Source of the DNA: an uncultured bacterium
Lineage (GTDB): Bacteria; Omnitrophota; Omnitrophia; Omnitrophales; Aquincolibacteriaceae
DNA: 64,000 nucleotides
Reading direction: 5' to 3'
NCBI GenBank assembly: GCA_964606385.1
Contig: CAZSFZ010000006.1
Span: 45,943-109,942, forward strand
The position numbers were made by a program, and so were the translations under genes. Below, in pieces: positions 1 through 28,137 of this stretch (within the stretch, counting starts at the first letter, position 1; each line of letters opens with the position of its first letter). The notes under the pieces were generated by a model. That model was not told the DNA's origin and did not search any database. It was given only the letters and a program-made list of their open reading frames with translations.

Positions 1-707
1 CGCTTGCCTCCGTTATGTACGGCATTGAGGAGCGCAAGGGGCTGATCCTCATCACCGGCGAGGTCGGGACGGGGAAGACCACTCTTTGCAAGACGATCCT
101 GGAGCGTCTGCCGCAATCGGTCCGCACCTCCTTCATCATGAGCCCGTATTTCAGCGACATTCAGCTTCTCCAGGCGATCGTGGAGGATTTCGGCCTTCAA
201 CCGGAAAAGAAGACGCGCTTGGACATCGTGAAGAAACTGGATTCCTTTCTGATCGACCTGAGCCTCAATAACGGGAATGCGGTCCTGATCATCGATGAAG
301 CGCAGAATCTGAAGGCTCGCCAGCTTGAGCAGATCCGGCTTCTCTCAAACCTTGAAACCAAGCACGGAAAACTTCTTCAGATCGTGATCGTGGGGCAGCC
401 CGAGCTCAAGGAACATCTCGAGCGGTTCGACCTGCGCCAGCTTTACCAGCGTTTTGTGATCAAATACGAGCTGAAGCCGCTGGAGTTTGCAGATGTGAAG
501 GCTTATGTGGATTTCCGCATGGAGCACACGGGTGTGACCGGGGTTTTTATCCCGCCCGAAAGCTACCGCATGATCTACGAATTCTCGAAAGGCATCCCGC
601 GTCTTGTGAACCTGCTTTGTGATCGCGCTCTCTTACTCGGATTCGTCCGGAAGGAAAAGGTCCTGGGGACGGATGTGTTCGTCGCCGCGATGGAAGAGAT
701 CCGATGA
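1..707 (+). CDS. ExeA/GspA-like AAA+ ATPase (5' partial)
   Basis: Walker A GEVGTGKTT and Walker B LIIDEAQ. Architecture matches ExeA/GspA-type secretion-associated ATPases. The ORF runs off the window start. Confidence 0.7.
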   Translation, partial: LASVMYGIEERKGLILITGEVGTGKTTLCKTILERLPQSVRTSFIMSPYFSDIQLLQAIVEDFGLQPEKKTRLDIVKKLDSFLIDLSLNNGNAVLIIDEAQNLKARQLEQIRLLSNLETKHGKLLQIVIVGQPELKEHLERFDLRQLYQRFVIKYELKPLEFADVKAYVDFRMEHTGVTGVFIPPESYRMIYEFSKGIPRLVNLLCDRALLLGFVRKEKVLGTDVFVAAMEEIR

Positions 708-1168
708 GTATCGTTTACGATTACCTGAAGCAGATCCAGGCCAAAAAACCCCTGGATAAAGGCGCTTCTCCCGCAAATGTGTCGACTTCGCCTAAACCGG
801 CTGTAGCCGCTTCCGGAAAAAAGAACTTCTTTTCTTCCCTTGGGTTCAAAATAGGCCTGACGGTGCTGGGGCTTGCGGTGCTGGGACTGATGCTGTACTT
901 TTTCCCTCCTCGGGCGCAGCCGGGTACTTCCGCGAATCAGGGCGCGCAGGGGCAGGTCAAGCCGAGGGCGGTTAAACCCGAGGTGACCGAGAGCGGGATG
1001 GTCCTGGAAGGGATCATCTACAATCCGTCCCGGCCTTTCGCGATCATCAACGGCAAAATGCTCGAGGTCGGTGGCCGCGTCGGCGAGTATGAAGCCGCTG
1101 AGATCGCTTCCGACTATGTGATCCTGAAGAACGTGAAGGATGGTACTTCCCGTACCATCCGGTTGTAG
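704..1168 (+). CDS. GspB/ExeB-like single-pass membrane protein
   Basis: ATGA overlap with the upstream ATPase gene. One TM helix (GLTVLGLAVLGLMLYFF), a Pro/Ala-rich linker and a conserved ~60-aa C-terminal domain, as in T2SS GspB partners of GspA. Confidence 0.45.
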   Translation: MSIVYDYLKQIQAKKPLDKGASPANVSTSPKPAVAASGKKNFFSSLGFKIGLTVLGLAVLGLMLYFFPPRAQPGTSANQGAQGQVKPRAVKPEVTESGMVLEGIIYNPSRPFAIINGKMLEVGGRVGEYEAAEIASDYVILKNVKDGTSRTIRL

Positions 1169-1311
1169 GTTTCTTTCTCCCGTTATTTTAATTCATTCCA
1201 TTTTTCGACGAAGGCAGTTGCGTTCTGCGGGCTGAAGGTTTAACATACGCTTCATATCGCAGACAGTTGTAAGGGTCTAGCGGGTCCTCCGCTAGAGGGA
1301 TTTATGATGGT

Positions 1312-1365
1312 CGGGCCGCCATCTGACGTTCAAACGTCAGGTTGCGGCCTTTTTGTTTTCAGGGC
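1312..1365 (+). terminator. Rho-independent terminator after the gspA/B-like pair
   Basis: GGGCCGCC..CTGACGTTCAAACGTCAG..GCGGCC nested stem followed by TTTTTGTTTT. Confidence 0.5.
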
Positions 1366-1387
1366 CCCCATGACAAAAGGAGGTATA

Positions 1388-1501
1388 ATGGACTGGATCT
1401 TGCGTGACGGGCCTGCTTATTTGGTGGTGGTGGCCATTGTTTCCTTTATCGTATATGTGGCCGTACGGTCGCGTAGGAACGATGGGGAAAAGAAGCCTTA
1501 G
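1388..1501 (+). CDS. small single-TM protein (38 aa)
   Basis: Strong RBS AAAGGAGGtataATG. Sequence MDWILRDGPAYLVVVAIVSFIVYVAV with a basic tail. No homology is claimed. Confidence 0.4.
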   Translation: MDWILRDGPAYLVVVAIVSFIVYVAVRSRRNDGEKKP

Positions 1502-1524
1502 TAGAAAGAATTTTTCATAAGGAG

Positions 1525-2430
1525 ATGGGATCCATGGAAGCAACCGGGTGGAAGTGGGATGATTTTGTTAGAACGGCGTGGGAGAGTAAGGCCTGGAAAC
1601 CTCTCATTATCCTGATCGTGTGCTGGGGGCTTTTTATCGGCCTTCAGTTCGCGTTGAAACGGTTTGAGAAATTTCTTTCCCGTAGAGACACGCTTCGCGA
1701 AGATGAAACGACTTTACGGCTCAAAACATTCCTGCATGTCCTTGAGTGGATCGGTTCGATCCTTATCGTGGGTACGGGGCTTTACATGCTTCTCCAGAGC
1801 TTTGGCATCGACGTCGCCCCGATCCTTGCGGGGGCCGGGATCGTCGGCTTAGCGCTGGGTTTTGGGGGACAGTACCTGATCCGGGACCTTATCAACGGGA
1901 TCTTCATCCTCTTTGAAGGGCAGTTCCGCGTCAATGACGTGGTCAAGATCGGGGACCTCAGCGGGCTTGTGGAGGCCATGAATTTGCGCGTCACCCAGCT
2001 GCGCGATCTGGAGGGGCGGGTCATTTATATCCCGAACGGGGAGATCAAGACGGTCATCAATTTCACCAAAGGATATTCCCATGCCCTCTTCGACATCGGG
2101 ATCGCCTACAAGGAAAAAGTGGATGATGTGATGAATGTCATGAAAGAGGTCGCGCGGGGCATGAGAAAGGATCCCTGCTTCGGAAAACTGATCCTGGAGG
2201 ATATGGAAATGCTCGGGGTGGACGCATTCTCGGATTCCGCCGTGATCATCAAGTGCCGCATGAAAACCCTGCCCATCAAGCAATGGGAAGTCGCCCGGGA
2301 ATACCGGCGCCGCCTGAAGAACCGCTTCGATGAGCTCAAGATCGAAATACCATTTCCTCACCGGACCCTCTATTGGGGTGAGAACCAGGCTGCGGGAATT
2401 CCGAAGGCCGAGAACGGGAGAAAAGTATGA
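1525..2430 (+). CDS. mscS: mechanosensitive channel, MscS family
   Basis: RBS AAGGAGatgggatccATG. Three N-terminal TM helices and a conserved MscS core (GxxGLALGFGGQ...VxIPNG). Confidence 0.85.
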   Translation: MGSMEATGWKWDDFVRTAWESKAWKPLIILIVCWGLFIGLQFALKRFEKFLSRRDTLREDETTLRLKTFLHVLEWIGSILIVGTGLYMLLQSFGIDVAPILAGAGIVGLALGFGGQYLIRDLINGIFILFEGQFRVNDVVKIGDLSGLVEAMNLRVTQLRDLEGRVIYIPNGEIKTVINFTKGYSHALFDIGIAYKEKVDDVMNVMKEVARGMRKDPCFGKLILEDMEMLGVDAFSDSAVIIKCRMKTLPIKQWEVAREYRRRLKNRFDELKIEIPFPHRTLYWGENQAAGIPKAENGRKV

Positions 2431-4652
2431 AAATTACGCTGCGGCTGATCCTTTCGCTTCTGATCGCGACAACGATCGTGGTCGTGAGCTTTTCCTATCT
2501 TCAGGCGCAGCACGAGGAAAAACGTCTGAATGAAGAGCTCCGGCTCCGCGCCACCGTGCTTGCCAAGACCTTCAAGGAAACGGTGGAAGCCTATCTGGAA
2601 CGCACGGACCAGCCGGATCGAATCCAGAAATTCATAGAAAAATTCAAGGGGCATACCCGTCTCATCGGCTTGGTCGTGGATATGAAAGAAGGCCCGCGGC
2701 TCGCGCTGCCACCGGAGTTGGCCCAGGAAGAATTGTTCAAGAAAGATTCCCTGAAAGTCATGGAGGAGAACGCCCCCGTGGACGTGAACCGGAAGTGGGG
2801 GGAAAGAAAAGTGAATTACCACGCCGTCCCGCTTCTCAAGGACGACCAGATCGTCGGCGCTTTGGGGTTGATCCATGACCGGAGTTTTATCGTGGCCCAA
2901 ATGCATCAGTTCTGGAAAAACTCCGCGCTGACTTTTTCTATTTTAGCGGCGATCCTTTCGATCGTATCGCTTTTCGTGATCCGATGGAGTGTGACGGGCC
3001 CTATCGCCCGCATTGGCCTGATGATCCAGAAAACTCTGGGGGTCGAGTCCGGGGTCGCCCCCGCGAACGGTAAGGAGCCGGGCGGGGACATCGAGAAGCT
3101 TCTCTACGGCGTCAGCCATATGGCGGCAAGTCTTAAAGCGACCAAGCTTGATTTGATGGAGCAGTCCAGGCTTGTGAACGCTGAAGGGACCGTCTGGACT
3201 AAGGAGAGGCTCAAGGATTATCTTCGGACCAAACTTCACGGAAAACAGCTCTATGTGATCTCGAACCGGGAACCCTACATCCACCAGAAAAAAGGGAATG
3301 AGATCGAGTGCATTACTCCCGCGAGCGGCGTCGTCACGGCCCTGGACCCTGTTTTGCAGGCGACAGGCGGTCTCTGGATCGGCCACGGGGCCGGGAACGC
3401 GGACCGCGAGACCGTGGACAAGCAGAACAAGGTTCGTGTTCCGCCCTGGAAACCTTCTTTCACGCTTAAACGCATCTGGTTGAGCGAGGAAGAGGAGAAG
3501 GGGTATTACTATGGCTTTTCAAACGAAGGGCTTTGGCCGCTTTGCCACATCAGCCATGTGAGGCCGGTTTTCAGGATCGAAGATTGGTATTGTTACAAGG
3601 AAGTGAACCGGAAGTTCGCGCGGGCGCTTCTCGAGGAGCTCGACGACGATCCCCCCTTGATCCTGATCCAGGATTATCATTTCGCGCTGCTCCCTAAAAT
3701 GATCAAGGAAGAAAGGCCGGACGCCAAGATCGCGCTTTTCTGGCATATTCCGTGGCCGAATGCCGAAGCCTTCGGGATCTGCCCCTGGCAGGAAGAGATC
3801 CTGGAGGGCATGCTCGGAAGCGATATCATCGGGTTCCACACCCAATTCCACTGCAATAATTTCCTGGATACCGTGGACCGGGCGCTGGAATGCAAGATCA
3901 ACTGGGCGAATTTTGAAGTGACGCGCGGGGGCAAATCAAGCGCCGTCAAACCGTTCCCGATCAGCATTTCGGGAGCTCCCAACGTGGCGGTCCAGGAAAC
4001 CGGAAAAGATCCGGTCGAAAAACTCAGGGAAAGCCTTGGCCTCAAAGGGAAGAAGATCGGGATCGGGGTGGACCGTATCGATTATACCAAGGGTCTTTTG
4101 GAGCGTTTCCGCGCGATCGAGCGCGTTCTTGAAAAGTATCCGAATCTTCAGGGGGAGCTTGTTTTTATCGAGCTGGGGGCGCCTTCCAGGACCCTGATCG
4201 GGAGTTACCGTGATCATCTGGCCGAAGTTGAAAAACTTGCCGAAAAGATCAACCTGCGCTTCCAGAAAGGTTCCTATCGGCCCATCCTTTTTTTAGAGGA
4301 ACATCATGATCAGAAGAAAATATTCGATTTCTACCAGATGGCGGATTTTTGTTTTGTCAGTTCGCTTCATGACGGGATGAATCTTGTGGCCAAAGAGTTC
4401 GTTTCGGCGCGCGAAGATGAGGAAGGGGTGCTGATCCTTAGCCGCTTTACGGGAGCAAGTTATGAATTTTCGAGCGCCCTTCTGATCAATCCTTACGATA
4501 TCGAAGGGACCGCCGAGGCGATCCATCAGGCGCTTACGATGCTCCCGGAGGAAAAAATGGAGCGGATGCGGAAGATGCGCCAGATCGTCCGGGAATATAA
4601 CGTCTACCGCTGGGCCGCGGATATGATCACCGGGCTCGTCAAATCCTTCTGA
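2427..4652 (+). CDS. otsA: trehalose-6-phosphate synthase (GT20, OtsA) with N-terminal 2-TM extracytoplasmic sensor and HAMP-like linker
   Basis: The C-terminal ~490 aa carry classic OtsA motifs (GFSNEGLWPLCH, LIQDYHFALLP, VDRIDYTKG). The N-terminal ~250 aa have a TM helix, a ~140-aa loop, a second TM helix and an amphipathic HAMP-like segment (RWSVTGPIARIGLMIQ). ATGA overlap with mscS. Confidence 0.85.
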   Translation: MKITLRLILSLLIATTIVVVSFSYLQAQHEEKRLNEELRLRATVLAKTFKETVEAYLERTDQPDRIQKFIEKFKGHTRLIGLVVDMKEGPRLALPPELAQEELFKKDSLKVMEENAPVDVNRKWGERKVNYHAVPLLKDDQIVGALGLIHDRSFIVAQMHQFWKNSALTFSILAAILSIVSLFVIRWSVTGPIARIGLMIQKTLGVESGVAPANGKEPGGDIEKLLYGVSHMAASLKATKLDLMEQSRLVNAEGTVWTKERLKDYLRTKLHGKQLYVISNREPYIHQKKGNEIECITPASGVVTALDPVLQATGGLWIGHGAGNADRETVDKQNKVRVPPWKPSFTLKRIWLSEEEEKGYYYGFSNEGLWPLCHISHVRPVFRIEDWYCYKEVNRKFARALLEELDDDPPLILIQDYHFALLPKMIKEERPDAKIALFWHIPWPNAEAFGICPWQEEILEGMLGSDIIGFHTQFHCNNFLDTVDRALECKINWANFEVTRGGKSSAVKPFPISISGAPNVAVQETGKDPVEKLRESLGLKGKKIGIGVDRIDYTKGLLERFRAIERVLEKYPNLQGELVFIELGAPSRTLIGSYRDHLAEVEKLAEKINLRFQKGSYRPILFLEEHHDQKKIFDFYQMADFCFVSSLHDGMNLVAKEFVSAREDEEGVLILSRFTGASYEFSSALLINPYDIEGTAEAIHQALTMLPEEKMERMRKMRQIVREYNVYRWAADMITGLVKSF

Positions 4653-4661
4653 GGCGGAAGA

Positions 4662-5465
4662 ATGCGCGCGTTAACGGAAAAAATCATTTCCCGGATCGCC
4701 GCGGTGCCCGCGCTGTTTCTCTTTCTGGATTATGACGGCACCCTGACGCCCATCGCGTCCGGTCCCAGCAAGGCTCGGTTAAGTTCCCGGGTACGGCGGA
4801 TCCTGAAGAAAATCGGATCCTTGAAAGATCTCCGGCTTGCGATCGTCAGCGGCAGGTCGCTGGCGAATTTGAAGCAATATGTCCGGATCCCGGGCCTGAT
4901 CTACGCGGGGAATCACGGTTTTGAGGCCGCGGGGCCGGGGCTGGCGTACGTGCATCCCGCGGCGGCGGCTTTGGAGCCTGTTTTCCGGAAATGCACACGT
5001 CGGCTTCGGAAGATCATGGCTCCGTTCCCGGGGATCCTGATCGAACACAAGCGGTTCAGCGTCAGCGTTCATTACCGTCAGGTCCGTTCGCCCGGGAGGG
5101 TCCGGGAGGCACGACGGCTTTTGATCAAGGAACTTCGGTCGCTCCGGCACACGCCGGTCGTGCTCGCGGCGGGCAAGAAAGTGTGGGAGATCCGCCCCAC
5201 GCGGGAGTGGCACAAAGGGGAGACGGTCGCCTGGCTTTTGCGGCGCGCCGGAAACTCCGGGCGGAAAAAGTTTTTCCCCGTTTATGTCGGGGATGACACA
5301 ACGGACGAAGATGCCTTTCGCGCCATACGCAAGGTCGGGATTGGTATCAAGGTCCATTCAGGCGGGGGCCGCCGTTCTTCGGCACGCTATTTTGTCCGGT
5401 CCACGGGAGATGCGGTGCGTTTTCTGGAAAAGATCATCCGTTTAAGAATAACAAAAGGGTGCTAA
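4662..5465 (+). CDS. otsB: trehalose-6-phosphate phosphatase (HAD)
   Basis: HAD motifs LFLDYDGTL, VSGRS, GNHGFE and VGDDTTDE. Confidence 0.85.
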   Translation: MRALTEKIISRIAAVPALFLFLDYDGTLTPIASGPSKARLSSRVRRILKKIGSLKDLRLAIVSGRSLANLKQYVRIPGLIYAGNHGFEAAGPGLAYVHPAAAALEPVFRKCTRRLRKIMAPFPGILIEHKRFSVSVHYRQVRSPGRVREARRLLIKELRSLRHTPVVLAAGKKVWEIRPTREWHKGETVAWLLRRAGNSGRKKFFPVYVGDDTTDEDAFRAIRKVGIGIKVHSGGGRRSSARYFVRSTGDAVRFLEKIIRLRITKGC

Positions 5466-7097
5466 ATGCCGGGCGATCCGCTTTGGTATAAAGACGCGAT
5501 CATTTACCAGCTGCACGTCAAATCGTTCTTTGACAGCAATGAGAACGGTTTTGGTGATTTTCCCGGCCTGACCCAAAAACTGGGCTACCTTCAGGACCTC
5601 GGGATCAACTGCATCTGGCTCATGCCGTTCTACCGCTCGCCGATGAAAGATGACGGCTACGATATCGCCCACTACGAAGAAGTGGCCCCCGAATACGGGA
5701 CCATGAAAGATTTCCAGGCCTTCGTGAAGGAGGCGCACAAGCTCGGGATCAAGGTGCTGATCGAGCTTGTGATGAATCATACCTCCGACCTGCATCCGTG
5801 GTTTGCCGAGGCCCGTCCTTCCCAAAGTTCGCCGAAACGGGATTTCTACGTCTGGAGCGATGATCCGGAGAAATACAAAGATGCCCGGATCATTTTCACC
5901 GATTCCGAAAAATCCAACTGGACCCATGATCCGGTGTCGGGCCAGTATTACTGGCACCGTTTTTTCAGCCACCAGCCGGATCTGAATTACGATAACCCTC
6001 AGGTCCAAAAGGCCATGCACGATGTGCTTTTTTTCTGGCTCAAAATGGGGGTCGACGGTTTCCGTCTGGACGCGGTCCCGTATCTTTTTGAACGTGACGG
6101 CACGAATTGCGAAAATCTTCCGGAGACGCACGCTTACCTCAAGGGGCTGCGGGCCCAGCTGGATAAGGCTTTTAAGGACAAGGTGCTTTTGGCCGAAGCG
6201 AATCAGTGGCCGGCCGACGTGCGGCCCTATTTCGGGCAGGGGGATGAATGTCATATGGCATTCCATTTCCCCTTGATGCCGCGGATCTTCATGGCGATCC
6301 GGAAAGAAGATAACGCGCCGATCCTTGAGATCATGAAGCAAACGCCTTCGATCCCGGAAAATTGCCAATGGGCCCTTTTCCTCCGCAATCACGATGAGCT
6401 GACGCTTGAGATGGTGACCCAGGAGGAACGCGATTACATGTACCGGGAGTACGCGGCGGACCCCAAAGCCCGCTTGAACCTGGGGATCCGGAGGCGGTTG
6501 GCGCCTCTCATGAATAACGGGCGGAGGCAGATGGAGCTTTTGAACAGCCTTCTTTTCAGTCTTCCGGGGACGCCCATCATCTATTACGGCGATGAGATCG
6601 GGATGGGGGACAACATCCACCTGGGGGACCGGAACGGCGTCAGGACCCCGATGCAATGGAACGGGAACAAAAATGCGGGTTTTTCGACCGTGGACCCCGA
6701 TAAACTTTACGCGCCTCTCATTATCGATCCTGTTTACGGCTACCAGGCGATCAACGTGGAAGCCCAAGGCATGACCCAATCCTCTTTTCTGAATTGGACG
6801 AAACGGATGATCCGGGTGCGCAAGAGCCTGAAAGCCTTTGGTCGCGGGACGATCGAGTTCCTTCATCATAAAAATCCGAAGATCCTGGCTTATATACGCG
6901 CCTATGGGGATGAAACGCTTTTGATCGTCAACAATCTATCCCGCTATGTTCAGCCGGTGGAACTCGATCTGAAAAACTATGACGGCTGGGAACCTTTGGA
7001 GCTTTGGGGGAACGTGAAGTTCCCAAAGATCGGGGAGCTTCCTTATTTCCTGACCCTCGGGCCGCACGGGTTCTATTGGTTCCGTCTTAACAAGTGA
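5466..7097 (+). CDS. treS: trehalose synthase / maltose alpha-D-glucosyltransferase (GH13)
   Basis: LWYKDAIIYQLHVKSFFDSNENGFGDF, VMNHTSD, GFRLDAV and YYGDEIGMGDN, all typical of TreS. Starts immediately after the otsB stop. Confidence 0.85.
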   Translation: MPGDPLWYKDAIIYQLHVKSFFDSNENGFGDFPGLTQKLGYLQDLGINCIWLMPFYRSPMKDDGYDIAHYEEVAPEYGTMKDFQAFVKEAHKLGIKVLIELVMNHTSDLHPWFAEARPSQSSPKRDFYVWSDDPEKYKDARIIFTDSEKSNWTHDPVSGQYYWHRFFSHQPDLNYDNPQVQKAMHDVLFFWLKMGVDGFRLDAVPYLFERDGTNCENLPETHAYLKGLRAQLDKAFKDKVLLAEANQWPADVRPYFGQGDECHMAFHFPLMPRIFMAIRKEDNAPILEIMKQTPSIPENCQWALFLRNHDELTLEMVTQEERDYMYREYAADPKARLNLGIRRRLAPLMNNGRRQMELLNSLLFSLPGTPIIYYGDEIGMGDNIHLGDRNGVRTPMQWNGNKNAGFSTVDPDKLYAPLIIDPVYGYQAINVEAQGMTQSSFLNWTKRMIRVRKSLKAFGRGTIEFLHHKNPKILAYIRAYGDETLLIVNNLSRYVQPVELDLKNYDGWEPLELWGNVKFPKIGELPYFLTLGPHGFYWFRLNK

Positions 7098-7104
7098 GCG
7101 GGTC

Positions 7105-7209
7105 ATGAGATTGTCCGGATGGATATTCATGATCGTCAGCTGGAGCGCGATCATCGCCCTGATCGTATTTTCCTATTCAAAAGTCCTCGCCAAGAAAAAA
7201 CCTCGCTAG
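7105..7209 (+). CDS. tiny hydrophobic peptide (34 aa)
   Basis: MRLSGWIFMIVSWSAIIALIVFSYSKVLAKKKPR: a single TM helix with a KKK tail, 8 nt after the treS stop. Not on the ORF track because it is short. Speculative. Confidence 0.25.
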   Translation: MRLSGWIFMIVSWSAIIALIVFSYSKVLAKKKPR

Positions 7210-7294
7210 CCTTTCCGCTTCCGCGTCTTGATTCGCGGAATGAGTTTTGTTAGTCTTTCCTGTAGCTGTCGTCCAAGCGGAGGTCTTGAGCTTA

Positions 7295-23674: not shown

Positions 23675-26146
23675 TCAGGCTTTTGTTGCTGCCTCGACCG
23701 GCAGTTTCGGGATCCGCATTTTGTAAAAGGACCTCCAAACGAAAATCAGGCCGATGATGAAGAAGACCACGCCGCTGATCGTGGTCGTTGCCGGATTCAT
23801 CTTGATCGCGATCTCGACGGCCAGCATGCCGAAGAGGGTCGAGAACTTGATGATCGGGTTGAGCGAGACCGATGTCGTGTCCTTGAAGGGATCTCCCACG
23901 GTGTCGCCAATGACCGTTGCCGCATGAACGGGCGTGTTTTTCTCTCCCAGATCGACCTCGACGACTTTCTTCGCGTTATCCCAGGAACCGCCCGCGTTGG
24001 CCATGAACATGGCCTGGAAAAGTCCAAAGGTGGCGATGGCGATCAGGTAGGCGATGAAGAAATAGGGATCGAACATCGCGAACGCGAGCGTGAGCATGAG
24101 CAACCCCACGAAAATATTCCACATCCCTTTTTGCGCGTACTCGGTACAGATCTTCACGACCTTGATCGAGTCTTGCCGGTCGGCTTCTTTTTTGTCGAGG
24201 TTCAGGTTCTTCTTGATGTACTCGACAGCGGAGTAGGCCCCGGTGGCCACGGCCTGGATGGAAGCGCCGCAGAACCAGAAGATCACGGCGCCGCCGCACA
24301 AGATCCCCAAAAGGACCGGCGCGGCCGTGAGCGATTCTTTTTCGTTAAGCAGGATCTCTCCGATATTCGCCGGAAGCACCTCGCCCAGCTTTGCACCGGC
24401 GACCGCGAGGGAGTGAAGATGCTCCTGCAAGAGCAGGATGATCGAAAAGATCATGGTGGTGGCTCCCGCGACGGCGGTCCCGATCAGCACGGGCTTTGCG
24501 GTAGCCTTGAAGGTATTGCCGGCCGAATCGTTGGCCTCCAGATAGTGTTTGCCTAGTTTGAAGTCAGGTTTGAATCCGAAATCCTTTTCGATCTCTTTTT
24601 CGATCCCCGGGATCGATTCCGTCTGGGCGAGTTCGAAGATCGATTGGGCGTTATCCGTCACCGGGCCGTAGGAATCCACGGCGATATTCACGGGGCCCAT
24701 ACAGAGGAACCCGTAGGCTACAAGGCCGAACGCGAAAATGGAGGCGTGCGGCATGATGTTCTGAAGCCCTGTCCCCGCGATCAAGAAGGCCCCGAACATC
24801 AGGCCCGCGATGAGGATACCCTTCCAGAAAGCTGAGAAGTAACCCGCCACGAGGCCCGAGAGGATCGTGAGCGACGCGCCGCCCTCACGGGAAGCGGTGA
24901 CGATCTCCTGGACATGTTTCGAATGGGAAGAGGTGAAGACTTTGGTGAACTCGGGAATGAGGTAAGCTGCCAAAGTGCCGCAAGTGATGATCGAAGCCAG
25001 CTTCCACCAGAGCGTCGGATCGGGAAGGTCACCGACCAAGAGGTAAGACATCCCGAACGAAGTGGAGATGCAGAGGATCGAAGCGATCTTGATCAACCGC
25101 GTGAGAGGCTCTTCGAAATCGAATTCTTTCAGGCCCTTGTATTTGCGCTCGGAGATGGCCTGGTTGATGAAGTACGAAAACCCCGACATGAAATCCATCA
25201 GGAACCGCATGGCGAAGATCCAGACGATGAGCTTTGCCTGGAGCGACGGATCTTTGATCGCGAGGGTGATGAACGAGATCAGCGCGACGCCGGTCACGCC
25301 GTAGGTCTCGAAGCCGTCCGCGGTCGGACCCACCGAGTCGCCGGCGTTGTCTCCCGTGCAGTCGGCGATGACGCCCGGGTTGCGCGGGTCATCTTCCTTG
25401 ACCTTGAAGACGATCTTCATGAGGTCGGAACCGATATCGGCGATCTTCGTGAAGATGCCTCCCGCGATCCGGAGGGCGCTCGCCCCGAGCGATTCACCGA
25501 TGGCGAATCCCAAAAAGCAATAGCCCACGATGTCGCGCGGCACGAAGAGCAGGATGATGACCATCATGACCAGTTCCACGGAGATCAGGAAAAGGCCGAC
25601 GGACATTCCGGAGCGCATGGGGATATTGACCACATCCCAGGGTTTTCCGCGGAGCGATGCGAAAGCGGTCCTTGCGTTCGCGTAGGTGTTGATGCGGATC
25701 CCGTAGTACGCGACAAGAGCGGATCCGCCCATGCCGATGACCGAAAAAAGAAGGACCAGCCCCAGGGTCGCCAGGGGTTCGTGCTTGAGGCCGAGGAAGT
25801 AGTAACTCATCGCGGCGGCGATGATCACGAACAGGATCGTGAGGAACTTCACCTGCTGTTTCAGATAGGTTTTGCAGGTCTGGAAGATCGTTTCCGCCAC
25901 ATCGAGCATCGACTTGTGGGCGGGAAGGGCCTTCACGTTAAAAAACTGGTAAAGGGATAATCCCACGGTCCCCAGGATCACCATCGCCCCGTAAAGAAGG
26001 ATCTGGAAGCCCGAGAGGCCGCCGAACATGGCGAAGTGTCCTTCATGAAGGTCCGGGATCTTGAGATCCGCTTCACTGGCCCATGCCGCGCCCTGCCCAA
26101 GAAAGATCATGCTTGAAAAAGAGAGTCGTGTGAGAAGTTTTTTCAT
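23675..26146 (-). CDS. hppA: membrane-bound H+/Na+-translocating pyrophosphatase
   Basis: 823 aa with ~16 TM helices. Conserved V-PPase motifs include GGIFTKIADIGSDL, DNVGDNVGD-like DCTGDNAGD and EYYT. Confidence 0.9.
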   Translation of the reverse strand: MKKLLTRLSFSSMIFLGQGAAWASEADLKIPDLHEGHFAMFGGLSGFQILLYGAMVILGTVGLSLYQFFNVKALPAHKSMLDVAETIFQTCKTYLKQQVKFLTILFVIIAAAMSYYFLGLKHEPLATLGLVLLFSVIGMGGSALVAYYGIRINTYANARTAFASLRGKPWDVVNIPMRSGMSVGLFLISVELVMMVIILLFVPRDIVGYCFLGFAIGESLGASALRIAGGIFTKIADIGSDLMKIVFKVKEDDPRNPGVIADCTGDNAGDSVGPTADGFETYGVTGVALISFITLAIKDPSLQAKLIVWIFAMRFLMDFMSGFSYFINQAISERKYKGLKEFDFEEPLTRLIKIASILCISTSFGMSYLLVGDLPDPTLWWKLASIITCGTLAAYLIPEFTKVFTSSHSKHVQEIVTASREGGASLTILSGLVAGYFSAFWKGILIAGLMFGAFLIAGTGLQNIMPHASIFAFGLVAYGFLCMGPVNIAVDSYGPVTDNAQSIFELAQTESIPGIEKEIEKDFGFKPDFKLGKHYLEANDSAGNTFKATAKPVLIGTAVAGATTMIFSIILLLQEHLHSLAVAGAKLGEVLPANIGEILLNEKESLTAAPVLLGILCGGAVIFWFCGASIQAVATGAYSAVEYIKKNLNLDKKEADRQDSIKVVKICTEYAQKGMWNIFVGLLMLTLAFAMFDPYFFIAYLIAIATFGLFQAMFMANAGGSWDNAKKVVEVDLGEKNTPVHAATVIGDTVGDPFKDTTSVSLNPIIKFSTLFGMLAVEIAIKMNPATTTISGVVFFIIGLIFVWRSFYKMRIPKLPVEAATKA

Positions 26147-26409: not shown

Positions 26410-28137
26410 ATGGCAGTCATGATCAAACGGGTCGAAAGACCCCGTGAACTCAAATGGTATCACGCCGGCGCCATGCTCTATGGCGACTGGGGCACCTCCA
26501 AGGCTTACGTTCTCGGCATTGCTTTTGCCCTTGCCGGTCACGCCTCCTGGTTCTTCCTGGGACTGATGTCCCTTTTCATGATCCTGATCGGGATCTGTTA
26601 CATGATTGTTTGCCGTCTTTATCCGGACGGCGGCGGTGTCTATTCCTCGGTCAAACAGCGCTCTCAAACCCTTGCCGTGATCGGGTCTTTTCTTCTCGTT
26701 GCCAATTACACGGTCACCGTTTCTATCAGCGTACTGACAGCTTTCTATTATTTCAACGTTCCCAATCCTGAGGTCTGGGCGATCGGGGCGATCCTTGTGA
26801 TCGGCGCCATGAACTGGGTCGGCCCTACGAAGAGCGGGCATGTGGCGACAGCCATCGCGATCTTTGCTTCTCTCACGGCTTTGATCCTCTTTCTGTTCAC
26901 CGTCCCTCATCTCCCCAAGGTCGAATTATCGATGCCCGCGGGGGGGCTGATGAAGAACTGGTCTGTGTTTGTCGGGATCGTCCTCGCCCTTTCGGGCGTG
27001 GAGGTGATCGCCAACATGACCGGTATTATGGTGGAACCTGTCAAGAGGACCTCGCGTCGCGCAATCCTTCCCGTCATGATCGAAGTATCGGTCCTGACGT
27101 TTCTCTTAGGGGTCGCGATGAATGCTATTCCCGGGTTGACCGGACATGCCGAAGATATGCTGCGCGTGCTGGGGAACCACTTCGTGGGGTCTTGGTACGG
27201 AAATGTGATCGCTCTGGCGTTTGGATTCCTCCTCCTGTCGGCGGGCAACACAGCGATCACGGGCCTTGTGAGCATCCAGTTTGCGTTGGCCAAAGACCGT
27301 GAGCTGCCTCCTGTTTTCTCCAAGCTTAACCGTTTCGGTATGCCGTGGCTCGCGTTGATCATTGCGGTGGCGCTGCCGATCCTGGTACTGATTATCGAAA
27401 AAGACGTTCTCCATCTTGCGGCGCTTTACGCGATCGGTGTCGTGGGTGCCATTGCAATGAATCTTGCCACGAGCGCCACGAATTTTTCGATCCGTATGAA
27501 GCTTTGGGAGCGCCTGCTCCTTGGCTTGGGCGGCCTTATTACGATCTTTATTGAACTGACGATCGCCATTGAGAAGCGGGATGCTCTTTTCTTTGTTCTG
27601 ACCATCGTGGGGGTGGGTCTCGCTCTCCGTTATGCAGCCAAGATGATCGCTCCGGTGGCCATGCCGGAATTGGCCTCGACCGTCAACGTGCTGACGGTCG
27701 CGGAAGCCAAGGAGCTTTCCTCGCTTTATAAAAGCACGGCGATGGTCGCCCTTCGCTCTGTGAATCCCATTTTACTTGAGGAAGCCGCACTTCACGTCAA
27801 GGCCAAGGGAGAGAATTCGGTTTATCTGAGCTACGTGGAAGAGACGCCGCCTTCGCCGGAACTTCCGACCGAGATCGAGCCGTCGCGGGAATCCGTCGAA
27901 GTGCTCGCGAAAGCCCAGGAGGAAATGGAAAAGCACGGAATTACCGCGGTCCCGATATGGCAGATCGGGGACAATCCGGGCCGTTTGATCGCGCGCGCGG
28001 CCCAGGACCTCGATGTCAAAACAGTCGCGATCGGAGCGACCAAGCGAAGCGCCCTGATCAATCTTTTGCGCGGCGACGTCTTGCGGACCCTGGCCCACAA
28101 CCTCCGCAAAGAGTGCCATTTATTGATTGTCGGCTAG
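26410..28137 (+). CDS. APC-type permease fused to C-terminal universal stress protein (UspA) domain
   Basis: ~12 TM helices over ~430 aa, then a cytoplasmic alpha/beta UspA-like domain (VYLSYVEE...VAIGATKRSALINLLRGDV). Confidence 0.65.
   Translation: MAVMIKRVERPRELKWYHAGAMLYGDWGTSKAYVLGIAFALAGHASWFFLGLMSLFMILIGICYMIVCRLYPDGGGVYSSVKQRSQTLAVIGSFLLVANYTVTVSISVLTAFYYFNVPNPEVWAIGAILVIGAMNWVGPTKSGHVATAIAIFASLTALILFLFTVPHLPKVELSMPAGGLMKNWSVFVGIVLALSGVEVIANMTGIMVEPVKRTSRRAILPVMIEVSVLTFLLGVAMNAIPGLTGHAEDMLRVLGNHFVGSWYGNVIALAFGFLLLSAGNTAITGLVSIQFALAKDRELPPVFSKLNRFGMPWLALIIAVALPILVLIIEKDVLHLAALYAIGVVGAIAMNLATSATNFSIRMKLWERLLLGLGGLITIFIELTIAIEKRDALFFVLTIVGVGLALRYAAKMIAPVAMPELASTVNVLTVAEAKELSSLYKSTAMVALRSVNPILLEEAALHVKAKGENSVYLSYVEETPPSPELPTEIEPSRESVEVLAKAQEEMEKHGITAVPIWQIGDNPGRLIARAAQDLDVKTVAIGATKRSALINLLRGDVLRTLAHNLRKECHLLIVG

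What the first reader, a model, noticed from the sequence alone, without database searches (positions are those of the whole stretch)
2427..4652. Membrane sensor/HAMP module fused to trehalose-6-phosphate synthase, inside an MscS-otsA-otsB-treS osmoprotection block
OtsA is normally a soluble cytoplasmic GT20 enzyme. Here the full catalytic domain is preceded by ~250 aa with TM1, a ~140-aa extracytoplasmic loop, TM2 and an amphipathic HAMP-like helix (RWSVTGPIARIGLMIQ...). This is the input architecture of sensor kinases and chemoreceptors, with a biosynthetic enzyme as the output. The gene overlaps mscS (ATGA) and is followed by otsB, treS and a tiny TM peptide. The locus therefore looks like a self-contained osmosensing and trehalose-synthesis unit in which an envelope signal could gate enzyme activity directly.
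Basis: partly seen in the sequence, partly recalled or inferred. Interest (0 to 1): 0.65.

Follow-up and report, generated by a model that had tools for sequence, protein, structure and literature searches.

The report
Membrane sensor fused to trehalose synthase
A bacterial enzyme that makes the protective sugar trehalose carries, at its front end, the same membrane-spanning sensor module that signalling receptors use; the fusion is real, is conserved across many phyla, and I found no paper describing it, so an outside signal may switch sugar synthesis on directly without any change in gene expression.

Summary
ORF 2427..4652 is one 741-aa protein with these parts:
- TM1, aa ~5-27
- a 137-aa extracytoplasmic domain
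- TM2, aa ~165-186
- a HAMP domain, aa ~187-240
- a helical stalk
- a complete GT20 trehalose-6-phosphate synthase, from aa ~256

The extracytoplasmic domain is a single Cache (PDC) fold. It is closest to the sensor domain of the kinase WalK. The whole N-terminal module aligns at 99.4% probability with a genuine HAMP-HisKA-HATPase sensor kinase. A profile of the segment after TM2 finds only HAMP domains in the PDB.

The fusion is not an assembly artefact. All 78 orthologues reconstructed from other genomes are 729-793 aa and have the same two TM segments. They come from Omnitrophota, Patescibacteria, Acidobacteriota, Geobacterales and Burkholderiales, including cultured Aquabacterium soli. Membrane-type enzymes form one clade. 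Soluble sister enzymes begin exactly at the fusion point (MWTKE...).

The operon mscS-otsA-otsB-treS-small TM ORF is conserved in close relatives.

Databases call these proteins only 'trehalose-6-phosphate synthase', and I found no paper on the fusion. That the sensor regulates the enzyme, and that the stimulus is osmotic, are both inferences. I file it as a new variant of a known kind (Cache-HAMP receptor, new metabolic output).

The parts
1525..2430 (+). MscS-family mechanosensitive channel gene, first gene of the block. Its stop codon overlaps the otsA start (ATGA).
   Evidence: Pfam MS_channel_1st/2nd/3rd. NCBIfam MscS models match below their cut-offs. Overlap read. An MscS gene lies directly upstream of the orthologue in L001-L005, L008, L021 and L023.
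2427..4652 (+). Whole sensor-OtsA fusion gene (741 aa)
2439..2507 (+). TM1 (aa ~5-27), preceded by K2 and R6, so the N-terminus is cytoplasmic
   Evidence: Hydropathy. Present in all 78 orthologues. Lies within helix 2-59 of the AF2 model.
2508..2918 (+). Extracytoplasmic single Cache (PDC) sensor domain, aa 28-164, WalK-like. It ends in the near-invariant G144, L146 and D151 (the ..LIHDRSF motif).
   Evidence: AF2 pLDDT is 83-96 here, with a long N-terminal helix plus a five-stranded sheet. Foldseek matches WalK 4ywz with TM-score 0.76 and rmsd 2.8 A, then Cache domains of chemoreceptors. A PDB profile search finds WalK 5is1, 4ywz and 7dud at E 5e-4 to 3e-3. Pfam dCache_1, Cache_WalK and sCache_3_2 match some orthologues.
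2919..2984 (+). TM2 (aa ~165-186)
2985..3146 (+). HAMP domain (aa ~187-240). AS1 is the RWSVTGPIARIGLMIQKTLG segment, carrying the signature Pro192. The connector is aa 205-220. AS2 is DIEKLLYGVSHMAASLKA.
   Evidence: hhalign against a Pfam-verified HAMP histidine kinase (P0123) gives prob 99.4% and E 4e-21 and spans that kinase's HAMP. The family profile's top 20 PDB hits are all HAMP domains; Af1503 scores E 0.004 in a gapless 51-aa alignment. Pfam HAMP is precomputed on relatives that are 52-68% identical. Pfam misses HAMP on the window protein itself.
3147..3191 (+). Helical stalk that continues AS2 up to the enzyme (aa ~241-255)
   Evidence: The AF2 helix runs from aa 221 or 222 to 253 or 254, at low confidence. 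The length from L225 to W257 is bimodal across 79 sequences, 32-33 or 24-25 residues. The two classes differ by one heptad.
3192..4652 (+). GT20 trehalose-6-phosphate synthase domain, including its own N-terminal helix (W257...L262)
   Evidence: Pfam PF00982 E 4e-117. PDB Tps1 and OtsA hits at E 3e-77 to 5e-68. It is 32% identical to E. coli OtsA, and R281, G301, Y361, W370, D416, H440, R550, K555, R588, D649 and E657 are all kept. Soluble sister enzymes start at MWTKE....
4662..5465 (+). otsB, trehalose-6-phosphate phosphatase
   Evidence: Pfam Trehalose_PPase E 5e-50. TIGR00685 scores above its cut-off. It lies directly downstream of the orthologue in most loci.
5466..7097 (+). treS, maltose alpha-D-glucosyltransferase (trehalose synthase)
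   Evidence: TIGR02456 scores 922 bits against a cut-off of 678. Conserved downstream in Omnitrophota loci L001-L010.
7105..7209 (+). 34-aa single-TM ORF, the last gene of the block
   Evidence: Conserved in L001, L003 and L004. Called as a gene on an independent contig. No family match.
7219..7250 (+). Terminator-like hairpin followed by a T-rich tail
   Evidence: This is a consensus scan only.

Best explanation
The gene encodes a transmembrane receptor whose output is a metabolic enzyme. Two TM helices hold a WalK-like single Cache domain outside the cytoplasmic membrane. TM2 runs into a HAMP domain. The second HAMP helix continues as a stalk of fixed heptad register into a catalytically intact trehalose-6-phosphate synthase.

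Proposed mechanism (inferred):
1. The protein works as a homodimer, like other Cache-HAMP receptors.
2. A stimulus at the envelope shifts TM2. The stimulus could be a ligand in the Cache pocket, or a physical change in membrane or periplasm that goes with water stress.
3. The HAMP bundle switches state.
4. The stalk changes the mutual arrangement or domain closure of the two GT20 domains, and so turns T6P synthesis up or down without new transcription.
5. OtsB then releases trehalose, TreS interconverts trehalose and maltose, and the co-translated MscS channel covers the opposite (hypo-osmotic) case.

Shown here: the architecture, the homology of each module, intact catalytic residues, conservation across phyla, a single origin of the fusion in the sequences sampled, and operon structure. 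Inferred: dimerisation, regulation of activity by the sensor, and the osmotic nature of the stimulus.
For: Architecture: two TM segments. The AF2 model of aa 1-280 has pLDDT 81 and shows a long helix, an alpha/beta domain, a TM2-AS1 helix, a loop and an AS2 helix.

Cache:
- Foldseek's top hits are full-length WalK (E 2e-9, 266 columns) and WalK sensor-domain crystals (TM-score 0.76), followed only by Cache domains.
- The profile search finds WalK and KinD in the PDB.
- Cache-family Pfam hits appear in orthologues.

HAMP:
- The family profile aligns over 240 columns with sensor kinase P0123, whose aa 186-237 are Pfam HAMP at E 5e-13.
- A profile of the segment after TM2 hits Af1503, Tsr, NarQ and Aer HAMP domains and nothing else in its top 20.
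- Pfam HAMP plus GT20 is precomputed on P0265, P0266, P0270 and P0009.

Selection for the whole module:
- 78 of 78 orthologues keep both TM segments, the ~135-aa loop and the linker, even though identity there falls to 12-29% while GT20 stays at 52-60%.
- The stalk length is quantised by one heptad, whereas the HAMP connector varies freely. That pattern fits rigid helical coupling and does not fit a flexible tether.

Enzyme intact: all eleven catalytic or substrate-binding positions that I recall for E. coli OtsA are conserved.

Single fusion event: membrane-type sequences form one clade, and soluble sisters start at the junction.

Context: tight operon with otsB and treS, and an ATGA overlap with mscS, conserved in relatives.
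Against: - There are no functional data of any kind.
- The window protein's own HAMP gets no Pfam hit even at E<=10.
- PDB E-values for HAMP are marginal (0.004-0.05).
- AF2 confidence is low across aa 205-255 in the monomer model.
- In 47 of 79 orthologues the signature HAMP proline is replaced (SWRGW type) and AS1 is shorter, so canonical HAMP signalling may not hold across the family.
- GT-B glycosyltransferases have a self-contained active site. They lack the obligate dimer-interface chemistry that explains HAMP control of kinases and cyclases.
- Few residues of the Cache domain are conserved across phyla (R41, G144, L146, D151), so no common ligand site is evident.
- mscS linkage is limited to Omnitrophota and a few other loci.
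- The OtsA score is below the NCBIfam equivalog cut-off (420 against 565).
Confidence: 0.55

Rival explanations
1. The module is a passive anchor or scaffold. It is an evolutionary relic of a receptor that now only tethers OtsA to the inner face of the membrane, perhaps as a dimer. That could deliver trehalose where it protects lipids, or place the enzyme next to MscS or a transporter. No signal is transmitted.
For: The sensor module diverges quickly, to 12-29% identity. The HAMP proline is lost in 47 of 79 members. No conserved ligand pocket is seen. GT-B enzymes need no partner for catalysis. The HAMP region has low AF2 confidence.
Against: One TM helix would be enough for anchoring. Instead every orthologue in at least five phyla keeps a ~135-aa folded Cache domain, two TM helices and a helical linker. 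Stalk length is conserved in heptad steps, which a tether would not require. The membrane-bound AlgC, which may be tether-like, uses a Pro-rich flexible linker instead (10.1101/589796).
Confidence: 0.28
2. The module is a regulated receptor, but the cue is a specific chemical ligand bound by the Cache domain, such as a periplasmic sugar, amino acid, carboxylate or polyamine. Neither osmolarity nor envelope stress is the cue. Trehalose synthesis is then tied to nutrient status or to a host or partner signal.
For: Cache domains are typically small-molecule binders. The structural neighbours after WalK are the amino-acid, polyamine and histamine chemoreceptors PctC, Tlp3, McpU and TlpQ. The variable pocket sequence fits lineage-specific ligands. 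TreS and the link to glycogen-type carbon storage fit a metabolic role.
Against: The closest relative, the WalK sensor domain, has no established small-molecule ligand (my own knowledge). The mscS-otsBA context points to water stress. No ligand-binding motif could be identified here.
Confidence: 0.15
3. The fusion is an artefact. The N-terminal 250 aa belong to a separate gene that was joined to otsA by a frameshift or misassembly.
For: None was found. The only weak hint is that Pfam annotates nothing in aa 1-270.
Against: The identical protein occurs on independent assemblies. There are 78 orthologous single ORFs in 78 genomes, and the 120 best database hits are nearly all full length. Coding is continuous with no stop, and there is a proper SD-like motif and start.
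Confidence: 0.01

Closest known systems
WalK (YycG) and related sCache-HAMP sensor histidine kinases
   Same: The order TM1, single Cache domain, TM2, HAMP is the same. It is the best structural match (9a5d_A, 4ywz, 5is1, 7dud). There are weak NCBIfam matches to the WalK and DcuS N-termini. An uncharacterised kinase (P0123) shares the module at 31% identity.
   Different: The output is a GT20 glycosyltransferase, where the kinases have PAS, DHp and an ATPase domain. There is no phosphotransfer and no response regulator. It also lacks the cytoplasmic PAS domain of WalK.
Soluble OtsA/Tps1 trehalose-6-phosphate synthases (E. coli OtsA 1gz5, M. thermoresistibile OtsA 5jij, C. albicans Tps1 5huv)
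   Same: A complete GT-B GT20 catalytic domain with all key residues. It is partnered with OtsB.
   Different: It has a 255-aa membrane receptor module at the N-terminus. It belongs to a distinct 'SNREPYIH' subclade whose soluble members start at MWTKE. It scores below the NCBIfam OtsA equivalog cut-off.
Membrane-bound ('long') AlgC phosphomannomutase with an N-terminal dCache domain (bioRxiv 10.1101/589796)
   Same: A periplasmic Cache-superfamily domain held by two TM helices is fused directly to a cytoplasmic sugar-metabolism enzyme. It was overlooked because annotation named only the enzyme. Long and short forms coexist in nature.
   Different: [quoted passage not shown] Here there is a single Cache domain, a HAMP domain and a register-conserved helical stalk. 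The enzyme family is also different.
HAMP-coupled signalling enzymes (adenylate cyclase Rv3645-type, GGDEF/EAL proteins, PP2C phosphatases)
   Same: A transmembrane input plus HAMP drives an enzymatic domain in the same polypeptide. This comparison rests on my own knowledge of these families.
   Different: Those outputs make or destroy signalling molecules, and most need a dimeric active site. Here the output makes a bulk compatible-solute precursor with a monomeric GT-B active site.
Plant class I TPS1 with an auto-inhibitory N-terminal extension
   Same: An N-terminal extension on a GT20 T6P synthase is thought to control activity (my own knowledge).
   Different: The plant extension is soluble and unrelated in sequence, with no TM, Cache or HAMP.

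Membership tests
GT20 trehalose-6-phosphate synthase (OtsA/Tps1) | Glyco_transf_20 domain above the Pfam gathering score, full length | tested here: met
   PF00982 scores 392 bits against a cut-off of 32.5, covering aa 275-736 and profile positions 3-470 of 473.
GT20 trehalose-6-phosphate synthase (OtsA/Tps1) | Catalytic and substrate-binding residues of E. coli OtsA (R9, G22, Y76, W85, D130, H154, R262, K267, R300, D361, E369; residue list from my own memory of the crystal-structure papers) | tested here: met
   All eleven align to identical residues: R281, G301, Y361, W370, D416, H440, R550, K555, R588, D649 and E657.
GT20 trehalose-6-phosphate synthase (OtsA/Tps1) | NCBIfam equivalog score (TIGR02400 trehalose_OtsA) | tested here: not met
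   It scores 420 bits against a cut-off of 564.85. PRK14501 scores 472 against 634. The specificity for UDP-Glc plus G6P is therefore inferred from the adjacent OtsB (above its cut-off) and from residue conservation. The equivalog model does not certify it.
GT20 trehalose-6-phosphate synthase (OtsA/Tps1) | Enzyme activity (UDP/ADP-glucose + glucose-6-phosphate gives T6P) | not testable with these tools
   Needs a biochemical assay.
HAMP domain (PF00672) | Pfam HMM match above the gathering score on this protein | tested here: not met
   No HAMP hit on aa 1-276 even at E<=10. It is met in relatives: 3 of 79 orthologues (best E 3e-7), and it is precomputed on P0265, P0266, P0270 and P0009, which are 52-68% identical.
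HAMP domain (PF00672) | Homology to verified HAMP domains by profile comparison, over the full ~50-aa unit, positioned directly after the last TM helix | tested here: met
   hhalign gives prob 99.4% across the HAMP of kinase P0123. The family profile aligns without gaps to Af1503 HAMP residues 4-54 at E 0.004-0.01, and its top 20 PDB hits are all HAMP.
HAMP domain (PF00672) | Helix-connector-helix with a conserved Pro in AS1, a Gly at the end of AS1, and heptad-patterned AS2 | tested here: met
   P192 is invariant in the 25-sequence P-type alignment, alongside G204 and AS2 D221-A238 with L225, A233 and L236 near-invariant. AF2 gives helix 153-203, a loop, then helix 221-254. Across all 79 orthologues only 32 keep the Pro.
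HAMP domain (PF00672) | Parallel four-helix bundle in a homodimer | not tested
   Only monomer models could be run. pLDDT is low at aa 205-255.
Cache superfamily, single Cache (sCache/PDC) extracytoplasmic sensor | Long N-terminal helix continuous with TM1, followed by an alpha/beta PAS-like core with a five-stranded antiparallel sheet, lying between two TM helices | tested here: met
   AF2 secondary structure shows H2-59, H63-71, E79-86, E92-94, H96-100, H105-114, E118-124, E127-138 and E141-151, with pLDDT 83-96. Foldseek matches WalK 4ywz with TM-score 0.76 and rmsd 2.8 A over 143 columns.
Cache superfamily, single Cache (sCache/PDC) extracytoplasmic sensor | Sequence-profile match to a Cache family | tested here: inconclusive
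   The window protein has no Pfam Cache hit. Among orthologues, dCache_1 matches 9 of 79 (best 6e-6), Cache_WalK 6 of 79 (8e-6) and sCache_3_2 7 of 79. The family profile hits WalK sensor domains in the PDB at E 5e-4. All of these are below the curated cut-offs.
Cache superfamily, single Cache (sCache/PDC) extracytoplasmic sensor | Binds a ligand in the membrane-distal pocket | not testable with these tools
   No conserved pocket residues were identified across phyla.
Two-component sensor histidine kinase | HisKA/DHp phospho-acceptor and HATPase_c domains | tested here: not met
   Neither domain is present. Only the input module is shared, so this protein does not belong to the histidine kinase family.

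The most novel reading that the evidence does not exclude
This would be the first described class of HAMP-coupled transmembrane receptor whose direct output is a primary metabolic enzyme, a GT-B glycosyltransferase. In that reading it is a one-protein, transcription-independent switch that converts an envelope or water-stress cue into synthesis of a compatible solute. It is widespread in small-genome lineages (Omnitrophota, Patescibacteria) that have few conventional signalling systems, and it also occurs in cultivable Burkholderiales, where it can be tested.
Probability: 0.4. Interest if true: 0.75.

Novelty: new variant of a known kind. Interest (0 to 1): 0.58.

Why it matters
How bacteria switch on compatible-solute synthesis within seconds of water stress is known for only a few systems, for example K+-glutamate activation of E. 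coli OtsA and ionic-strength sensing by transporters. A receptor-enzyme fusion would give a direct and dissectable route from the envelope to sugar synthesis.

It would also widen the set of known HAMP outputs to include a monomeric-active-site GT-B enzyme. That raises the question of how a four-helix-bundle switch controls such a fold.

The family is common in uncultured, small-genome phyla. In those organisms, one-polypeptide sensing may stand in for missing two-component systems. Cultured carriers exist (Aquabacterium soli SJQ9, a Burkholderia-labelled isolate), so the question can be tested.

There is a practical point too. Thousands of database entries named only 'trehalose-6-phosphate synthase' hide a receptor module.

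Tried and rejected
- Pfam on aa 1-276 at E<=10 gave only noise (DUF7315, GAF, DUF3567). A single-sequence domain search therefore cannot settle the HAMP or Cache question, and profiles were needed.
- The first word-indexed homologue search with the N-terminus found only 5 proteins. That wrongly suggested rarity. The exhaustive HMMER search (409 representatives) and the genome scan corrected it.
- P0005 is an ABC-ATPase-annotated 327-aa protein that matches 25% of the N-terminus at 84% identity. It sits on a 1.2-kb contig. I regarded it as a probable chimeric or mis-called fragment and did not pursue it.
- I first took the invariant W257/L262 helix for a sensor-enzyme coupling element. I rejected that idea because soluble sister OtsAs begin with the same helix (MWTKExLK...), so it belongs to the enzyme.
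- The AFDB Foldseek library was unavailable.
- The sigma-70 promoter scan of 1100-7400 found none, against 3.2 expected by chance. That is uninformative for this phylum.
- Eight literature searches for any description of a TM, Cache or HAMP OtsA found nothing relevant. The 2026 paper on OtsA phylogeny in alkane-oxidising consortia does not mention membrane forms.
- The contig carrying kinase P0123 is only 1.9 kb, so it gives no taxonomic or contextual information.


Full report

Yes. ORF 2427..4652 on the + strand encodes 741 aa. Its ATG overlaps the TGA of an upstream MscS-family gene (1525..2430) as ATGA, and a GGGAG motif lies about 7 nt upstream.

Pfam finds a full-length Glyco_transf_20 domain at aa 275-736 (E 4e-117) and nothing in the first 270 residues. 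Hydropathy gives exactly two TM-grade segments, about aa 1-27 and 165-191, with about 137 residues between them. K2 and R6 come before TM1, and R186 and R195 come after TM2. That fits an N-in topology with the loop outside and the enzyme in the cytoplasm, which is where UDP-glucose and glucose-6-phosphate are found.

Downstream lie three genes:
- otsB at 4662..5465 (TIGR00685, above cut-off)
- treS at 5466..7097 (TIGR02456, 922 bits against 678)
- a 34-aa hydrophobic ORF at 7105..7209

The gaps between genes are 9, 0 and 7 nt. A terminator-like hairpin follows at 7219..7240. An independent assembly carries the identical protein and the same gene calls.

**2. It is not an artefact, and it is not unique.**

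A scan of one genome per species returned 112 relatives, of which 80 were kept. I rebuilt the ORF in 78 of them. All are 729-793 aa and all have two strongly hydrophobic segments in the same places.

They come from Omnitrophota (66-89% identity; the window clearly belongs here), Patescibacteria/CPR (Levy-, Davies-, Microgenomates, Saccharimonadales), Acidobacteriota, Geobacterales/Smithellaceae, Bdellovibrionota and Burkholderiales. The Burkholderiales include cultured Aquabacterium soli SJQ9.

An exhaustive HMMER search with aa 1-265 alone found 409 cluster representatives. Of those long enough to judge, nearly all continue into GT20. The 120 best full-length hits are ~740 aa, apart from a few partial entries. 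Their sources name them only 'trehalose-6-phosphate synthase' or 'hypothetical protein'.

**3. What the N-terminal module is.**

*(a) Extracytoplasmic domain.* AF2 with a 33-sequence alignment gives pLDDT 83-96 for aa 30-160. The model has a long helix continuous with TM1, two short helices and a five-stranded sheet. Foldseek against the PDB ranks a full-length WalK model first (E 2e-9, 266 columns). Next come WalK sensor-domain crystals (4ywz, 7dud, 5is1; TM-score 0.73-0.76, rmsd about 2.8 A). After those come only Cache domains of chemoreceptors and KinD. A sequence profile of 79 orthologues independently finds WalK (E 5e-4) and KinD in the PDB. Individual orthologues give sub-threshold Pfam hits to dCache_1, Cache_WalK, sCache_3_2 and CHASE4. 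NCBIfam gives weak hits to the N-termini of DcuS/MalK and WalK kinases. The domain is therefore a WalK-like single Cache (PDC) domain.

*(b) Segment after TM2.* The window protein itself has no Pfam HAMP hit. Three results nevertheless establish homology:
- One hit of the N-terminal search, P0123, is a genuine sensor kinase with Pfam HAMP at aa 186-237 (E 5e-13), HisKA and HATPase_c. The family profile aligns with it over 240 columns (prob 99.4%, E 4e-21). The alignment runs from TM1 through its HAMP.
- A profile of the segment after TM2 (25 P-type sequences) hits the archetypal Af1503 HAMP without gaps over 51 residues (E 0.004-0.01). It also hits Tsr, NarQ and Aer. Its top 20 PDB hits are all HAMP.
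- Relatives that are 52-68% identical carry a precomputed Pfam HAMP+GT20 annotation.

The signature features are present. These are Pro192 in AS1 (RWSVTGPIARI...), Gly204, a 16-aa connector, and AS2 (D221-A238) with conserved L225, A233 and L236. The AF2 helices at 153-203 and 221-254 match this layout.

*(c) Stalk and junction.* AS2 continues as a helix to about aa 254. A short break follows, and then a helix with invariant W257 and L262. I first read that helix as a coupling element. The closest soluble OtsAs (486-512 aa, on contigs up to 1.5 Mb) begin with exactly this helix (MWTKExLKxLI..). It therefore belongs to the enzyme, and the fusion point lies just before W257.

Across 79 sequences the distance from L225 to W257 takes only two kinds of value. 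It is 32-33 residues in 32 sequences (the P-type, which includes the window) and 24-25 in 46 sequences (the SWRGW type of Proteobacteria and Geobacterales). The two classes differ by one heptad. The AS1-plus-connector length, by contrast, ranges from 26 to 43 (the 7-column gap is visible). A linker quantised in heptads is what helical-register coupling predicts, and a flexible tether would not show it.

**4. The enzyme.**

The GT20 domain matches the solved Tps1 and OtsA structures at E 3e-77 to 5e-68. It is 32% identical to E. coli OtsA. The eleven catalytic or substrate-contacting residues I recall from the E. coli structures (R9, G22, Y76, W85, D130, H154, R262, K267, R300, D361, E369) align to identical residues. 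In window numbering these are R281, G301, Y361, W370, D416, H440, R550, K555, R588, D649 and E657. The full-length AF2 model has pLDDT above 85 through most of the domain.

The protein scores below the NCBIfam OtsA equivalog cut-off (420 against 565). The assignment of T6P synthesis therefore rests on residue conservation and on the adjacent OtsB, which is above its cut-off.

In a neighbour-joining tree of GT20 domains, all membrane-type sequences form one clade apart from the soluble ones. The few 'soluble' leaves inside that clade are N-terminally truncated fragments. In this sampling, the pattern points to one fusion event followed by spread across phyla.

**5. Context.**

otsB lies directly downstream in most loci. 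An MscS gene lies directly upstream in the nearest Omnitrophota and in L021 and L023. treS lies downstream in Omnitrophota and about 3 kb upstream in Geobacterales. The 34-aa TM ORF recurs after treS in L001, L003 and L004. The rest of the window is ordinary chromosome: RND efflux, H+-PPase, glycerol kinase and G3P dehydrogenase, among others.

**6. How it most likely works.**

Shown: a receptor-type input (sCache-TM-HAMP-stalk) is covalently joined to an intact T6P synthase. The join is under long-term selection as a unit and sits in an otsB/treS/mscS operon.

Inferred: the protein dimerises like other Cache-HAMP receptors. An envelope stimulus moves TM2 and flips the HAMP bundle. The stalk then alters the arrangement or domain closure of the GT20 domains, so that T6P synthesis changes without new transcription. 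OtsB completes trehalose synthesis, TreS interconverts it with maltose, and MscS handles downshock.

I put about 0.55 on 'the sensor regulates the enzyme'. Within that, I put less than half on the cue being osmotic or physical, as opposed to a specific ligand.

The main rival, at about 0.28, is a relic receptor that serves only as a membrane anchor or dimerisation scaffold. Points in its favour:
- the module diverges fast (12-29% identity, against 52-60% for GT20)
- the HAMP proline is lost in 47 of 79 members
- a GT-B active site has no need of a partner

Points against it:
- a folded 135-aa domain is retained everywhere
- the stalk is quantised in heptads

**7. Comparison with what is known.**

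The input module is homologous to those of WalK-type kinases, but the protein is not a kinase, because it has no DHp or ATPase domain. It is a GT20 OtsA-type enzyme, but no characterised OtsA that I know of has a membrane module.

The nearest published precedent I found is the 'long' AlgC phosphomannomutase. It consists of a dCache domain between two TM helices, a Pro-rich flexible linker and the enzyme, and it too was overlooked for decades (10.1101/589796). The present family differs in having a single Cache domain, a HAMP domain and a rigid stalk. That makes real signal transmission more plausible here.

To my knowledge, the known HAMP-coupled enzymes (cyclases, GGDEF/EAL, PP2C) all have signalling outputs.

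Eight full-text searches found no description of a TM, Cache or HAMP trehalose-6-phosphate synthase. Subscription-only literature was not searchable, so an existing description cannot be excluded.

**8. Verdict.**

- The structural interpretation is confirmed and sharpened: WalK-like sCache, HAMP, heptad stalk, fusion point at W257.
- The functional interpretation (osmosensing gate) is plausible but untested.
- The fusion is a widespread, monophyletic and apparently undescribed OtsA subfamily. I file it as a new variant of a known kind, with interest 0.58.

Noticed in passing
window 7105..7209 (+); L001 8021..8137, L003 12698..12823, L004 7236..7349: A 34-aa single-TM ORF (MRLSGWIFMIVSWSAIIALIVFSYSKVLAKKKPR) closes the operon. 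It is conserved after treS in three related Omnitrophota loci, and a terminator-like hairpin follows it. It matches no family. It could be a small membrane-protein partner of the sensor, in the way MgrB partners PhoQ, but this is untested.
   Followed up: partly
Orthologue alignment A1 (loci L001-L080), window aa 186-257: There are two subtypes of the post-TM2 module. The P-type (RWS.xGPIA) is found in Omnitrophota, Acidobacteriota and CPR. The SWRGW type is found in Proteobacteria and Geobacterales. It lacks the HAMP proline, and its stalk is exactly one heptad shorter.
   Followed up: partly
P0123 (locus L082 63..1562): A 499-aa HAMP-HisKA-HATPase_c sensor kinase shares the whole TM1-sCache-TM2-HAMP module with the OtsA family at 31% identity. 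The same input has therefore been wired to two different outputs. Its contig is only 1.9 kb, so no context is available.
   Followed up: partly
P0197-P0215 (soluble GT20 proteins of 486-512 aa): The closest soluble OtsAs start at MWTKExLK..., which is exactly the fusion junction (W257) of the membrane form. They form the sister clade.
   Followed up: yes
P0008 (913 aa): A family member has about 178 extra N-terminal residues ahead of the sensor module. Pfam gives weak SMP_2, CHASE8 and HAMP hits.
   Followed up: no
L015, L016, L017, L020, L022, L038 (Acidobacteriota): The acidobacterial orthologues are longer (766-791 aa, with a C-terminal extension). tblastn detects no adjacent otsB. In most of these loci (not L016) an MscS-like gene lies on the opposite strand 3-5 kb downstream.
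   Followed up: no
window 7247..9559 (+): A 770-aa protein fuses a polytopic membrane region to a spermidine-synthase-like domain (Pfam Spermine_synth; NCBIfam fused MFS/spermidine synthase subfamily). It lies immediately after the trehalose operon.
   Followed up: no
window 26410..28137 (+): An amino-acid permease is fused to a C-terminal universal stress protein (Usp) domain. An H+-pyrophosphatase (23675..26146, - strand) lies next to it.
   Followed up: no
window 15..1168 (+) and upstream on L081: An AAA_22 ATPase and a 154-aa ORF with no family sit just upstream of mscS. Ahead of them on the longer contig are a secretin and PilM-like genes, which looks like a pilus or secretion cluster.
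   Followed up: no
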